From: Escherichia coli
GTDB lineage: Bacteria; Pseudomonadota; Gammaproteobacteria; Enterobacterales; Enterobacteriaceae
Assembly: GCF_011045215.1 (NCBI RefSeq)
Contig: NZ_CP049201.1
DNA length: 64,000 nt
Direction: 5' to 3' (one strand)
Shown: one piece after another, positions 45,001 through 51,000 of the stretch
How the letters are laid out: every line of letters begins with the position of its first letter
Numbering within the stretch: position 1 is the first letter of the stretch
Program-made: the position numbers

Positions 45001-48000
45001 GACAATATTACCTGGGATAAAAATAATCGTCTGTCGCAGGGCGTCACACAGAATACGGGCAGCACACTTGCCGGTAACGGTGATGTCACGCTGACCGCCG
45101 GACGGGATATGACGTCACAGGCGGCATCGCTGTCAGCTCAGAAAGGCCTGGCCCTGATGGCGGGTCATGACGTGACGCTGACCGGTGCACAGAATACCCG
45201 CTCGCTGGATGAATACCATAAAGTGACCGGCAACAGCGGGATGTTATCGAAAACCACCACTACCACGCATGATGTCACTGACCGCCGGACCATGACGGGC
45301 AGTGAACTGAACGGGGATACGGTCAGTATCGGTGCCGGACATAATCTGAACGTCACGGGCAGCAGTGTGGCCGGGGATAACCGTGTCTCCCTGGCTGCCG
45401 GAAATAACCTGAGTATCGGAACGCTGACAGAAAGCAACCGTGAAACACACCTGAAACAGGAGAAAAAATCCGGACTGATGAGCTCCGGAGGTGTGGGATT
45501 CAGCGTGGGCAGCCAGAGTCTGAAGGTCACGGACACCGCAACAGACACCACGCAGAAAGGCAGCACGGTGGGGAGTGTTCACGGTGATGTTTCCCTTCAG
45601 GCAGGTAACCGGTTGACCGTCAACGGCTCTGACCTGATTGCCGGCAGGGACATGGCACTCAGTGGTAAGGAGGTCAGCATTACCGCCGCCACTGACCGGC
45701 ATGTGCAGACACATACGGTGGAGCAGAAAACCTCCGGTCTGACGCTTGCCCTGTCCGGCACAGCGGGCAGCGCCCTGAACACGACGGTGGAGACCGTACA
45801 GGCGGCGAAATCTGCCGGAAACAGCCGGCTTGAAGCCCTGCAGGGGGTGAAGGCCGCGCTCTCGGGGGCTCAGGCCGTGCAGGCCGGACGACTGGCAGAA
45901 GCACAGGGCAACCAGAAAGAGAATAACAATACCGTGGGTATCAGCCTCTCTTACGGCAGCCAGTCTTCGAAATCAGAACAGCAGTCAGAGCAGACGGTGG
46001 CGAAGGGCAGTACACTGACCGCAGGTAATAACCTCAGTATTCAGGCCACCGGCTCCGGCGTGAAGGGCGTGGATGGTGACCTGACGATACAGGGCGGTCA
46101 GATAAAGGCCGGGAACAACGTTCTGCTGCAGGCAAACCGTGACGTGAATCTGGTATCAGCAGAAAACACGTCAAAGCTGGAAGGAAAGAACACATCCAGT
46201 GGTGGCAGCGTGGGTGTCGGTATCGGTGTGGGGCCCGGAGGGCCTGGTTTCAGTCTGTCAGCCAGCGCAAACCAGGGTAAGGGCAGTGAAAAAGGCAACG
46301 GTACCACCCATACAGAAACCACGGTGGATGCGGGAAACCGGCTGACCATTATCAGCGGGCGGGACACCACGCTTACCGGCGCGCAGGCTGGCGGTGAAAC
46401 GGTGAAAGTGGATGCCGGTCGTCATCTGACACTGACCAGTGAGCAGGACAGTGACCGTTATGACAGTAAGCAGCAGAATGCCAGCGCCGGAGGCAGCTTC
46501 ACTTTCGGGTCCATGAGCGGTTCGGCGAGTGTGAACCTCAGCCGGGATAAAATGCACAGTAACTACGACAGTGTACAGGAGCAGACGGGGATTTTTGCCG
46601 GCAGGGGCGGGTTTGATGTCACCACCGGACAGCATACGCAACTGAACGGTGCGGTGATTGCGTCCACGGCAACGGCAGATAAAAACAGGCTGGATACCGG
46701 CACACTGGGCTTCAGTGACACTGAAAACCGGGCTGACTTTAAAACGGAACATCAGAGTGCAGGGCTCAGTACCGGTGGCAGTGTTGCCGGAAATTTCCTG
46801 GGGAACATGGCAAACAATCTGCTGGTCGGTGCAAATCATGAAGGCCATGCGGACAGTACCACGCAGTCGGCTGTGTCTGCCGGGAATATCACTATCCGGG
46901 ATACACAGAGCCAGAAACAGGATGTGGCAGACCTGAACCGTGACGTTGCGCATGCAAACCAGACGCTGTCCCCCATCTTTGACAGGGAAAAAGAGCAGCA
47001 GCGGTTGCAGCAGGCGCAACTCATTGGTGAGATTGGTAACCAGGTGGCAGATATTGCCAGAACGGAAGGACAGATAGCCGGTGAGAAAGCGAAGCGGGAC
47101 CCGGCAGCACTGAATCAGGCCCGCGCAGAGCTTGAGGCAGCAGGAAAACCGTACACGGAACAGGATGTGGCACAGCGGGCCTACAATAACGGTATGGCAG
47201 CCTCCGGTTTTGGAACGGGAGGCAAATACCAGCAGGCGATACAGGCCGCAACGGCAGCGGTACAGGGACTGGCCGGCGGTAATCTGAGTGCAGCCCTGGC
47301 AGGTGGTGCAGCGCCGTATATTGCTGAAATTATCAAACAGACCACCCCGGACGGTGCGGGGCGTGTGGCAGCTCATGCAGTAGTGAATGCCGCCCTGTCT
47401 CTGGCACAGGGTAAGAATGCCCTTGCCGGTGCTGCAGGTGCAGCCACCGGCGAGGTGGTGGGAATGATAGCCACACAGATATACGATAAATCGGTGAGTG
47501 AACTGAGTGAGACAGAGAAACAGACGGTCTCCACGCTGGCAACGGTTGCTGCCGGCCTGGCCGGTGGTCTGGTGGGAGACTCGGGGGCTTCAGCGGTAGC
47601 CGGCGCACAGTCAGGTAAGACGACTGTTGAGAATAATTATCTTAGCGTGTCTGAAAAGACAGAGCTTGAGATAGCAAAACAGAAGCTTAAAAACAGTAAA
47701 GATCCGGCAGAGCGTGAAAAGGCACAGCAGAAATATGATGCATTGCTTGAAAAAGATATCAGCAGTGATAAGGCAGTAATCGCTGCGTGCAGTAACGGAC
47801 AGGCAGCCAGCGCAGCTTGTGCCGGTGAAAGACTGAAGGTTATTGCAGCTAAAGGAGGTTATGAAACCGGACACTACAATAACCAAGTCAGCGATATGTA
47901 TCCGGATGCTTACGGGCAGATAGTAAACCTGCTGAATATCACCAGTGTTGATGCACAAAATCAACAACAGGTGAAGGATGCGATGGTGAACTATGCCATG

Positions 48001-51000
48001 GTGCAGTTTGGGGTCGATAGGGCGACGGCACAGGCATACGTTGAAACTTATGATGGAATGAAAGTTGTAGCTGCTTCGATGGCACCAGTAATAGGTGCTG
48101 CGGCGGCCAGTAAGATAGAAGTTCTGGCTGGTAAACAACGCTTGTCTAATAGTTTCGAGGTTAGCTCACTTCCAGATGCAAATGGGAAAAATCACATCAC
48201 GGCTGTAAAAGGTGATGCTAAAATACCTGTCGATAAGATTGAACTATATATGCGTGGTAAAGCTTCTGGTGACCTTGATTCTTTGCAAGCAGAATATAAT
48301 TCTTTAAAAGATGCAAGGATTAGCAGCCAAAAAGAATTTGCAAAAGATCCAAACAATGCTAAAAGGATGGAAGTATTAGAAAAACAAATCCATAATATTG
48401 AGCGTTCTCAAGATATGGCTCGTGTATTAGAACAAGCAGGTATAGTGAATACTGCCAGTAATAACAGCATGATAATGGATAAGTTATTGGACTCAGCTCA
48501 GGGGGCTACGTCTGCAAATAGAAAAACATCTGTTGTTGTATCAGGGCCTAACGGTAACGTAAGGATTTATGCTACATGGACAATATTACCTGATGGCACG
48601 AAAAGACTTTCAACTGTTAATACGGGGACATTCAAATGATAAATGTGAATAGTACCGCAAAGGATATTGAAGGTTTAGAAAGTTACCTAGCTAATGGCTA
48701 TGTAGAGGCTGACTCTTTTAACGACCCAGAGGATGATGCGTTAGAGTGTCTCAGTAATTTATTAGTTAAAGATTCGAGGGGGGGGCTGTCATTTTGTAAA
48801 AAAATACTTAATTCAAATAACATTGATGGTGTTTTTATTAAAGGTTCGGCGCTGAATTTCTTATTATTGTCAGAACAGTGGTCTTACGCCTTTGAGTATT
48901 TGACAAGCAATGCGGATAATATAACTCTTGCAGAGCTTGAAAAGGCGCTTTTCTATTTTTACTGTGCAAAAAATGAGACAGATCCTTATCCTGTACCAGA
49001 GGGTTTATTCAAAAAACTGATGAAAAGATATGAAGAACTGAAAAATGACCCTGATGCAAAATTTTATCATCTTCATGAAACGTACAATGATTTTTCAAAA
49101 GCTTATCCTCTGAATAATTAGAAGCTATCGCCATGGAATATTGTCTATGACTGCATGGAAGGATGATGGTCATAGTGTGTTGGGAGCTATTCTTTAACAG
49201 ATTTGGGGGAAATGGTGTAACTGGCTGAAAGGGCGCGTCAGGGCAAAAAGTTGTTGCGCCGGAATTATAGCAGGACAAAGCGGTTTTAACGCGCTGAAAG
49301 CACAGGGAAAACTTGTTTTATCACAGCAACCTGCGGCGGAAAGAGTTGTTGTTGAGAATAACTTTTTGACCGCGGATCAGATCGATAGCTTTGCGGCAAA
49401 AGCAAAAGGGTGTGAAGTACGTGGCGACTGCAAACAGATTGTAAAGGAGATGGAGGAGCTCAGCCTTAAGCAACAGCAGGAAATGATAGCTGTCTGCGCA
49501 ACAAACCCTGCGGCCTGCAAAGAGAAATTCGGCGATATACCAGCTAAAGGAATGCTTGTACGAGAAGCGATAGATCGTGTGTTAGGTGCAGATGTACCGT
49601 CTGCAATGAAGAATGATATGTCTTCGTTGTTAGCTCAGCAGATCGAAGCGGAAGGTGTTGTTACCAGTACTGAATTTGCCTGTCAGCTACAAAATCGTTA
49701 CGGTATAGACAAGCAACAGGCTGAAATCCTTGCCGTCGCAGCATTGGGAGCAGTGACAGGTGGGATGGGGAAATCAGGTACTTCAACGGTAACTAAAAAC
49801 ATCGTTGTGGTTAATTCAGGTAAGAAAGGGGCCTGGAATCAAGCAATGAATAAGCCGGAACCGAATACCGTTTATAAGGTCGATGGAAATAAAACATACC
49901 AGACTGATGCATTGGGAAGAACTAGTTCAGTTGAGGGTATACTAGTTGCTTCGAAAAGCGACAGAAACACTTATCAGCAATGCAAGGCCGGGAAATGTGG
50001 TAGCTCTGGTGATGAAGGTGGTCATTTAATTGCCAGTATTTTTAATGGTCCTGGCGAAAAACTCAATCTTGTTCCTATGGATGGCAACCTGAATAAAGGT
50101 GTATGGAAACAGATGGAAAACACATGGGCTAATGCTTTGAAAGATGGCAAACAAGTTAATGTTAAAATAGAACCTGTTTACACTGGGGAGAATAAGCGTC
50201 CTGAAAGCTTTAGTGTAACATACTCTATTGATGGAGGCCGTCCTGTTATCAAAGACATCAGCAACACACCTGGAGGGGTAAAATGAACGAATTAGATGAT
50301 CTGCATAATAAAATAGGTCAGTTATTAGTGGATGCCGGTCCTGCTAATGCGATGAAGATCATTGCTCGTGCTAAATTATCACTAGATGGTGAGTCATGTG
50401 AGTATGAGTATGATTATCTTGATCAAGAGGGAGATGAAGATTGGTTCGTTCCTGATAAGTTAGCCAGTCACGATCTTAGGCTACTGTTAGTTAAAATGAG
50501 GGATTTTTACATCCGAAATAATATGACTAACGGGAAACCAGCATGGATAGGTTGTGAAATAATCGTTGATATACCAGAAGAAAAAATTAGCATAAACTTT
50601 CAATATGATGATGAACTATGATCTAGGCCCCGGGATCTCCACAATGCCCATAGCGTGTACGGTGGAACAAAGCGTGTCGGGGAAAAAATCGGCGGGCAGC
50701 GAAACGCAACAGAATAAAGGTTGTAACAAACTGAAAGAAAAGGGGAAAATCGTCTCCTTCACCACAATGCGCGTCAGAGAGAGTTGTTATTGAGAATAAC
50801 TTCTTAAGCTCTAAAGAAGCCCGACAATTCGATGAAGAACTGGTGGAATGCAAGGCTTCTGGTGGAGACTGTAAATCTGTTATTCAGAAATATCTGGATA
50901 TCAGCAACCAAAACAGTAAGGAACTGGCTGAAGCCTGTACTGGCGGTGGTGTTGCATGCGTAACTTGGGAGGAATTAATTCAGGGAAGGACTAATGTTGC

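What the first reader, a model, noticed from the sequence alone, without database searches (positions are those of the whole stretch)
47626..49121. CdiA-CT toxin of unrecognised type with an abrupt compositional switch at VENN, plus its immunity gene
The DNA becomes strongly AT-rich immediately after the in-frame VENN (47626), which is the usual sign of a horizontally swapped toxin cassette. The first ~150 residues after VENN resemble a shared entry/translocation region. The C-terminal ~150 residues (…VVVSGPNGNVRIYATWTILPDGTKRLSTVNTGTFK) and the overlapping 161-aa immunity protein match nothing I recognise, so this may be an uncharacterised toxin/immunity pair.
Basis: partly seen in the sequence, partly recalled or inferred. 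Interest (0 to 1): 0.6.

Follow-up and report, generated by a model that had tools for sequence, protein, structure and literature searches.

The report
Known CdiA-CT/CdiI EC3006 tRNase toxin pair
This is an ordinary E. coli contact-dependent growth inhibition toxin and its immunity gene, almost identical to the E. coli 3006 pair, whose crystal structure, tRNA-cutting activity and cell-entry route are already published.

Summary
cdiA (39319-48639, 3106 aa) has a single in-frame VENN at 47626. GC falls from 0.57 before VENN to 0.46 (entry domain), 0.38 (toxin domain) and 0.35 (cdiI). A 161-aa ORF (48636-49121) overlaps the cdiA stop codon.

The interpretation "unrecognised type / uncharacterised pair" is wrong. 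The 337-aa CT is 336/337 identical to PDB 6VEK chain A, and its last 164 aa match 6CP8 chain A. The 161-aa protein is 159/161 identical to CdiI in both entries. These are CdiA-CT/CdiI from E. coli 3006.

Published work on that pair shows:
- a PtsG- and proton-gradient-dependent cytoplasm-entry domain;
- a BECR-fold (colicin D-like) tRNase specific for tRNA-Ile(GAU);
- an all-helical immunity protein that neutralises the toxin.

All published catalytic residues (K204, Y208, H256, R260, T330), the Cys55-Cys65 disulfide pair and Tyr5 are present.

The cassette sits on a cdiBCAI locus with a HlyC-type cdiC gene, the layout of class IV CdiA. Two orphan CT/immunity modules follow it. Homology to other E. 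coli loci breaks exactly at VENN, as expected for modular cassette exchange. Verdict: already known, low interest.

The parts
37027..38766 (+). cdiB, the outer-membrane two-partner-secretion transporter (ORF as listed; the true start codon may lie downstream of the TTG)
   Evidence: Intact 579-aa ORF. It is 95-97% identical at the DNA level to E. coli loci annotated as ShlB/FhaC/HecB family secretion/activation protein.
38776..39303 (+). cdiC, a HlyC-type toxin-activating lysine acyltransferase and the hallmark of class IV cdiBCAI loci
   Evidence: Pfam HlyC PF02794, E=4.6e-32, residues 23-149. It lies between cdiB and cdiA, as described for class IV loci (PMC8510554).
39319..48639 (+). cdiA, an intact 3106-aa effector
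   Evidence: Single uninterrupted ORF. The N-terminus MNKNCYRIIFNKARGMLMVV... is the usual extended TPS signal peptide (the signal-peptide reading is from general knowledge).
47494..47646 (+). PT-VENN pre-toxin domain; the VENN codons are 47626-47637
   Evidence: Pfam PF04829, E=7.2e-21. VENN position. Homology to other class IV cdiA genes stops at 47637-47647.
47638..48144 (+). PtsG-dependent cytoplasm-entry domain (CT residues 5 to ~173)
   Evidence: Identical to 6VEK_A except A53 (T53 in the PDB entry). DUF6862 hit. Tyr5, Cys55 and Cys65 are present. Function from PMC9424206.
48145..48639 (+). BECR-fold tRNase toxin domain of the EC3006 type (CT residues 174-337 plus the stop codon)
   Evidence: 100% identical to 6VEK_A over this stretch. 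Matches 6CP8_A with E=1.4e-99. K204, Y208, H256, R260 and T330 are present (residue list from PMC9086364 Table 1).
48636..49121 (+). cdiI, the cognate all-alpha-helical immunity protein of the EC3006 type
   Evidence: 159/161 identical to 6CP8_C and 6VEK_I, E=1e-105. The differences are D26 (N in the PDB entries) and N150 (D in the PDB entries).
49351..50286 (+). Orphan cdiA-CT module 1: VENN, an entry-domain remnant and an Endonuclea_NS_2 nuclease domain. It has no in-frame link to cdiA.
   Evidence: VENN at 49351. Pfam PF13930, E=3.7e-39, and DUF6862, E=1e-4. Weak PDB match to EssD nucleases, E=1e-15.
50283..50621 (+). Candidate orphan immunity gene 1 (112 aa)
   Evidence: Overlaps the stop codon of orphan CT 1. 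No PDB sequence match. The immunity assignment rests on position only.
50789..52031 (+). Orphan module 2. It starts with IENN at 50789, the reading frame is broken at 51280/51322, a Gly-rich C-terminal part follows (51322-51801), and a 77-aa hydrophobic ORF (51798-52031) is a candidate immunity gene.
   Evidence: The 159-aa part has no Pfam hit. Homology to strain 08-00022 resumes at 51277, which indicates a mosaic.

Best explanation
[quoted passage not shown] Both are alleles of the characterised E. coli 3006 pair. The mechanism below is taken from published work on the essentially identical protein and is inferred here by identity.

1. CdiB exports CdiA to the cell surface.
2. On binding a neighbouring cell, the CT is passed into the target periplasm and cleaved immediately after VENN.
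3. The freed N-terminal entry domain (residues 5 to ~170) uses the glucose transporter PtsG and the proton gradient to cross the inner membrane.
4. The C-terminal BECR-fold (colicin D-like) RNase cleaves tRNA-Ile(GAU) without needing a cofactor, which stops translation.
5. CdiI, an all-helical protein made by the producer, binds the toxin and protects sibling cells.

The cassette was acquired by recombination at the VENN-coding sequence. It sits on a CdiA of the cdiC-containing (class IV) type, which probably binds the LPS core. The cassettes displaced by this event remain downstream as orphan modules.
For: Identity to the solved pair:
- The CT is 336/337 identical to 6VEK_A (E=2.4e-214), and the toxin domain matches 6CP8_A (E=1.4e-99).
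- CdiI is 159/161 identical to 6CP8_C and 6VEK_I (E=1e-105).
- Catalytic residues K204, Y208, H256, R260 and T330, the Cys55/Cys65 pair and Tyr5 are all conserved. The residue list comes from PMC9086364 Table 1.

Published properties of that pair:
- tRNA-Ile cleavage in vitro that CdiI blocks, PtsG- and pmf-dependent entry, the requirement for processing after VENN, and the entry + BECR tRNase architecture (PMC9424206).
- tRNA-Ile(GAU) specificity, a preference for uncharged tRNA and an all-helical CdiI (PMC9086364).
- Description of the structure by its authors (PMC6851490).

Locus context:
- PT-VENN and DUF6862 Pfam hits.
- cdiC is a HlyC-family protein.
- RefSeq annotates the same protein in other E. 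coli genomes as 'contact-dependent inhibition effector tRNA nuclease'.

Cassette exchange:
- Class IV cdiA homology ends at 47637-47647.
- The same cassette, at 99% identity from 47594 to 49362 (VENN to the next VENN), sits on a cdiC-less CdiA in strain STEC434.
- A VENN-less copy lies on EC93 plasmid pCP127 as an orphan.
- GC drops by 10 SD at VENN.
Against: Nothing argues against it. Four caveats apply.
- No activity was measured for this exact allele. It carries A53 in the entry domain (T53 in the PDB entry), and D26 and N150 in CdiI (N26 and D150 in the PDB entries).
- Expression of the locus in this strain is unknown.
- LPS-core binding and CdiC lipidation are inferred from the gene order and from 95-97% DNA identity to other cdiBCA loci. 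The receptor-binding domain was not compared directly with CdiA-STEC4.
- The review consulted describes the tRNA cleavage site inconsistently, naming both the anticodon loop and a cut after C71 in the acceptor stem. My recollection of the primary paper (Gucinski et al. 2019, Structure), which I could not open here, is acceptor-stem cleavage of deacylated tRNA-Ile(GAU).
Confidence: 0.96

Rival explanations
1. The pair is a functionally diverged allele. The substitutions relative to the crystallised proteins (CT A53; CdiI D26 and N150) would change immunity specificity or entry, making it a new specificity group rather than the EC3006 pair.
For: Three amino-acid differences exist. D26 in CdiI is not seen in the three other natural alleles compared: STEC434, 08-00022 and the EC93 orphan.
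Against: - The toxin domain itself (residues 174-337) is 100% identical to 6VEK_A, so the surface CdiI must recognise is unchanged.
- N150 is shared with the STEC434 allele.
- A53 lies in the entry domain, whose family members tolerate about 30% divergence while keeping PtsG dependence (PMC9424206).
- More divergent natural alleles exist, with 11/161 CdiI differences in EC93, so three differences are ordinary polymorphism.
Confidence: 0.02
2. The locus is a silent or decaying remnant, and the CT/immunity pair is carried without being deployed. Closely related loci in other strains are in this state.
For: In the closest complete genomes the cdiBCAI locus is broken. Strain 08-00022 has an IS66 insertion in cdiA and a split cdiB. 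Strain 52F4 has fragmented cdiA and cdiB. IS66 and other IS elements lie just downstream in the window.
Against: In the window cdiB (579 aa), cdiC (175 aa), cdiA (3106 aa) and cdiI (161 aa) are all uninterrupted ORFs. This rival concerns expression only. It does not change what the cassette is.
Confidence: 0.1

Closest known systems
CdiA-CT/CdiI of E. coli 3006 (PDB 6CP8 and 6VEK; Gucinski et al. 2019 Structure; Bartelli et al. 2022 Nat Commun, PMC9424206)
   Same: The CT sequence is 336/337 identical and CdiI is 159/161 identical. The two-domain CT architecture, all catalytic residues, the disulfide cysteines, Tyr5 after VENN and the overlapping cdiI gene are all the same.
   Different: One substitution in the entry domain (A53 here, T53 in the PDB entry) and two in CdiI (D26 here vs N; N150 here vs D). 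I could not establish which class the CdiA scaffold of strain 3006 belongs to. Here the scaffold is of the cdiC-containing (class IV) type.
CdiA-CT of Klebsiella pneumoniae 342 (PDB 6CP9)
   Same: BECR, colicin D-like fold and tRNA-Ile(GAU) specificity, according to PMC9086364.
   Different: About 15% sequence identity. It needs EF-Tu/EF-Ts and GTP, whereas the EC3006 toxin has no cofactor listed in the review's Table 1. It cleaves one nucleotide away, and its immunity protein is an unrelated beta-rich protein. It did not appear in the sequence search.
PtsG-dependent entry domains of CdiA-CT NC101 and STEC_O31
   Same: Same entry-domain family, with about 70% pairwise identity according to PMC9424206. 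In this dataset the first ~490 nt after VENN recur at 80-94% identity in front of other toxins in hundreds of E. coli genomes.
   Different: These entry domains carry different tRNase cargo domains with other structures and substrates.
Class IV cdiBCAI locus of E. coli STEC_O31 (CdiA-STEC4; PMC8510554)
   Same: Gene order cdiB-cdiC-cdiA-cdiI, with a HlyC-family acyltransferase between cdiB and cdiA.
   Different: CdiA-STEC4 carries an Ntox25 ionophore toxin. Here the CT is the EC3006 tRNase cassette.

Membership tests
CdiA-CT EC3006-type BECR tRNase | Sequence identity of the toxin domain to the solved and characterised protein (6CP8_A, 6VEK_A) | tested here: met
   Residues 174-337 are 100% identical to 6VEK_A. 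The match to 6CP8_A has E=1.4e-99; that construct lacks one Asn.
CdiA-CT EC3006-type BECR tRNase | Active-site residues K204, Y208, H256, R260 and T330, numbered from Val1 of VENN | tested here: met
   All five are present at those positions. The residue list is from PMC9086364 Table 1.
CdiA-CT EC3006-type BECR tRNase | Cleavage of tRNA-Ile(GAU) that the cognate CdiI blocks | not testable with these tools
   Shown for the PDB protein in PMC9424206. Inferred here from sequence identity.
CdiI EC3006 | Encoded immediately downstream of the toxin, with sequence identity to the crystallised immunity protein | tested here: met
   ATGA overlap at 48636-48639. 159/161 identical to 6CP8_C and 6VEK_I.
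PtsG-dependent cytoplasm-entry domain | Sequence identity to the characterised domain, including Tyr5 (the new N-terminus after processing) and the Cys55-Cys65 pair | tested here: met
   Residues 1-173 are identical to 6VEK_A except A53/T53. Y5, C55 and C65 are present.
PtsG-dependent cytoplasm-entry domain | Import requires PtsG and the proton gradient | not testable with these tools
   Published for the identical domain (PMC9424206).
[quoted passage not shown] | Large CdiA with a PT-VENN pre-toxin domain marking the start of a variable CT, with cdiB upstream and cdiI downstream | tested here: met
   PF04829, E=7.2e-21. cdiB ORF 37027-38766 and a 3106-aa cdiA. Homologous loci are annotated ShlB/FhaC/HecB and hemagglutinin repeat protein.
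Class IV CdiA (LPS-core binding, CdiC-lipidated) | cdiC acyltransferase cistron between cdiB and cdiA | tested here: met
   HlyC PF02794, E=4.6e-32. Definition from PMC8510554.
Class IV CdiA (LPS-core binding, CdiC-lipidated) | Class IV receptor-binding domain with the acylated Lys (K1467 in CdiA-STEC4) | not tested
The only support is indirect: 95-97% DNA identity up to VENN with loci annotated with a toxin-activating lysine acyltransferase.

The most novel reading that the evidence does not exclude
The most novel reading that remains open is that this natural allele forms a distinct immunity or entry specificity group. The relevant features are CdiI D26, which was not seen in the other alleles compared, and the A53 change in the entry domain. 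A second version is that joining the EC3006 tRNase cassette to a CdiC-lipidated class IV scaffold changes the target range in a way not yet studied. Either would be a small extension of known CDI modularity.
Probability: 0.03. Interest if true: 0.2.

Novelty: already known. Interest (0 to 1): 0.06.

Why it matters
It matters little for discovery. The toxin, its immunity protein, their complex structure, the RNA substrate and the import route are all published for an essentially identical protein. Two points are useful.

- It shows a limit of motif-based recognition. Neither Pfam nor NCBIfam has a model for this toxin domain or for CdiI, so "matches nothing I recognise" does not imply novelty. 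A search against PDB sequences resolves the question in seconds.
- The locus is a clean textbook example of cassette exchange at VENN. The same VENN-to-VENN cassette is found on a class IV scaffold here, on a cdiC-less scaffold in another strain, and as an orphan on the EC93 plasmid.

Tried and rejected
- NCBIfam scan of the CT, CdiI, CdiC, the orphan ORFs and the downstream OMP: no family for any cdi-related protein. Only the Ail/OmpX-like OMP matched, below its curated cut-off.
- Pfam on CdiI: nothing significant.
- Pfam on the CT: only PT-VENN and DUF6862, with no model covering the toxin domain.
- Pfam on the Gly-rich orphan-2 ORF: nothing.
- Possible premature stop in cdiA: the 175-aa ORF 38776-39303 is in the same frame as cdiA, so I considered that it was the N-terminus of a cdiA broken by a stop codon. 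Rejected, because it is a HlyC-family cdiC gene and cdiA starts with its own signal peptide at 39319.
- DNA or protein repeats between the cdiA 3' end and the orphan region (blastn and tblastn): none above threshold. The shared VENN-flanking stretches are too short or too diverged to score.
- Primary papers: I tried to open Gucinski et al. 2019 (PMC6834915) and Willett et al. 2015 (PMC4568652). Neither is held, so their content is cited through PMC9424206, PMC9086364 and PMC6851490, or marked as recollection.
- Structure prediction and fold search were not run, because a 99.7%-identical crystal structure exists.
- The large protein-database searches were not used, because the answer did not depend on them.
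Full report
**1. What is in the sequence.**
The window carries a complete contact-dependent growth inhibition locus on the + strand:
- cdiB: 37027-38766, a 579-aa ORF.
- A 175-aa ORF: 38776-39303.
- cdiA: 39319-48639, 3106 aa.
- A 161-aa ORF: 48636-49121, whose ATG overlaps the cdiA stop codon as ATGA.

The CT is 337 aa and ends ...NGNVRIYATWTILPDGTKRLSTVNTGTFK.

**2. The compositional switch is real.**
- GC is 0.569 in cdiA before VENN, 0.459 in the first 170 codons after VENN, 0.377 in the remaining toxin codons and 0.346 in cdiI. 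GC3 falls from 0.61 to 0.41, 0.27 and 0.30.
- Against 146 same-length windows from pre-VENN cdiA (mean 0.569, SD 0.015), the CT GC of 0.418 is 10 SD low.
- In 90-nt windows the drop from 0.67 to 0.43 falls across the VENN codons.

**3. Identity of the toxin and immunity protein.**
- A sequence search of the PDB with the 337-aa CT returns 6VEK chain A ("contact-dependent toxin CdiA", 338 aa) at E=2.4e-214. The alignment is end to end with one mismatch: A53 here, T53 in the PDB entry.
- The same search returns 6CP8 chain A (163 aa) at E=1.4e-99, covering CT residues 174-337.
- The 161-aa protein matches 6CP8 chain C and 6VEK chain I ("CdiI") at E=1e-105. There are two mismatches: D26 here against N, and N150 here against D.
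- These entries are the CdiA-CT/CdiI complex of E. coli 3006 (PMC9424206; PMC6851490; PMC9086364).
That condition is met.

**4. What is known about that protein.**
From PMC9424206:
- The purified toxin cleaves tRNA-Ile in vitro, and CdiI blocks this.
- Entry into polymyxin-permeabilised cells requires PtsG and the proton gradient.
- Only the form processed exactly after VENN, with Tyr5 as the new N-terminus, is import-competent.
- A Cys55-Cys65 disulfide stabilises the entry domain.

From PMC9086364:
- The substrate is uncharged tRNA-Ile(GAU).
- Table 1 lists no cofactor for this toxin.
- The active-site residues are K204, Y208, H256, R260 and T330.
- The fold is colicin D-like.
- CdiI is entirely alpha-helical.

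All five catalytic residues, both cysteines and Tyr5 are present at those positions in the window protein.

The review is internally inconsistent on the cleavage site. It mentions both the anticodon loop and a cut after C71 in the acceptor stem. My recollection of the primary paper (Gucinski et al. 2019, Structure 27:1660) is acceptor-stem cleavage of deacylated tRNA-Ile(GAU) with no need for EF-Tu/Ts. I could not open that paper here.

**5. Why it looked unrecognisable.**
- Pfam finds only PT-VENN (PF04829, E=7e-21) and DUF6862 (E=3.5e-10, the start of the entry domain) in the CT, and nothing in CdiI.
- NCBIfam HMMs find nothing.
- The review itself notes that most BECR CdiA-CTs were recognised only from their structures, not from sequence.
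- RefSeq nevertheless names the full-length protein "contact-dependent inhibition effector tRNA nuclease" in several E. coli genomes.

**6. Scaffold and cassette borders.**
- The 175-aa ORF between cdiB and cdiA is a HlyC-family acyltransferase (PF02794, E=4.6e-32). This is cdiC, the feature that distinguishes class IV cdiBCAI loci. Their CdiA binds the LPS core and is lipidated by CdiC (PMC8510554).
- I had briefly suspected that this ORF, which is in frame with cdiA, marked a premature stop in cdiA. It does not.
- Homology of the window to other cdiBCA loci in E. coli (95-97% identity) ends at query positions 11137-11148, which is window 47636-47647, immediately after the VENN codons.
- In strain STEC434 the same cassette (99.1% identity) sits on a CdiA without cdiC. 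There the homology runs from 47594 to 49362, from VENN to the VENN of the next, orphan module.
- On plasmid pCP127 of strain EC93, a VENN-less copy lies as an orphan behind an IS66 element. It has 22/329 CT differences and 11/161 CdiI differences.
- Only 14 of 5426 complete E. coli genomes carry the whole cassette. About 670 carry the entry-domain part, joined to other toxins.
- This is the standard picture of modular CT/immunity exchange at VENN and adds nothing new to it.

**7. Downstream.**
Two orphan modules follow.
- Orphan 1 starts with VENN at 49351 and runs to 50286. It carries a DUF6862-like piece and an Endonuclea_NS_2 nuclease domain (PF13930, E=3.7e-39), and is distantly related to EssD nucleases in the PDB. 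A 112-aa candidate immunity ORF follows at 50283-50621 and has no PDB match.
- Orphan 2 starts with IENN at 50789. Its reading frame is interrupted at 51280/51322. It continues as a Gly-rich 159-aa ORF with no Pfam match, followed by a 77-aa hydrophobic ORF. Homology to strain 08-00022 resumes at 51277, so orphan 2 looks like a mosaic or damaged module.
- An Ail/Lom/OmpX-like outer-membrane protein gene (52297-52854) and IS66-family genes (53423-55741, minus strand) come next.

The rest of the window is E. coli chromosome, the clpA-macB-ybjD region plus island genes. No tRNA gene lies in the window.

**8. State of the locus.**
All four genes are intact here. In the two closest complete genomes the locus is damaged: 08-00022 has IS66 inserted in cdiA and a split cdiB, and 52F4 has fragmented cdiA and cdiB. 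Whether the window's locus is expressed cannot be told from sequence.

**9. Verdict.**
The central claim of an unrecognised, possibly uncharacterised toxin/immunity pair is refuted. It is the CdiA-CT/CdiI-EC3006 tRNase pair, already known. Interest is low.

Noticed in passing
window 38776-39303 (+): A HlyC-family acyltransferase gene (cdiC) lies between cdiB and cdiA, so the locus is a class IV-type cdiBCAI. It is in the same frame as cdiA and could be mistaken for a cdiA N-terminus cut off by a stop codon.
   Followed up: yes
window 49351-50621 (+): Orphan module 1 consists of VENN, an entry-domain remnant, an Endonuclea_NS_2 (EssD-like) nuclease CT and a 112-aa candidate immunity ORF. The ORF has no PDB sequence match. 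No Pfam scan was run on it.
   Followed up: partly
window 50789-52031 (+): Orphan module 2 starts with IENN instead of VENN. Its reading frame is broken at 51280/51322. The Gly-rich 159-aa C-terminal ORF has no Pfam match, and a 77-aa hydrophobic ORF follows. It may be a damaged ionophore-type toxin/immunity module, but that is a guess from composition. Homology to strain 08-00022 resumes exactly at 51277.
   Followed up: partly
L004 (E. coli EC93 plasmid pCP127) 12001-13472: The prototype CDI strain EC93 carries a VENN-less orphan copy of the EC3006-type CT/cdiI directly behind an IS66 element. It is about 93% identical at the DNA level and lies in a long orphan array.
   Followed up: partly
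L002 (E. coli 08-00022) and L003 (E. coli 52F4): In the closest complete genomes the same cdiBCAI locus is degraded, with IS66 inserted in cdiA and with split cdiB and cdiA. The window copy is intact.
   Followed up: partly
window 52297-52854 (+) and 53423-55741 (-): An Ail/Lom/OmpX-like outer-membrane protein gene matches the NCBIfam 'resistance to complement killing' model below its curated cut-off. An IS66-family element (tnpA/B/C-like ORFs) follows the cdi locus.
   Followed up: no
window 25701-27200: This is the lowest-GC stretch of the window, at 0.317 in a 1496-nt window. It overlaps a 605-aa minus-strand ORF (25341-27158) in the island upstream of the cdi locus. I did not examine it.
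   Followed up: no
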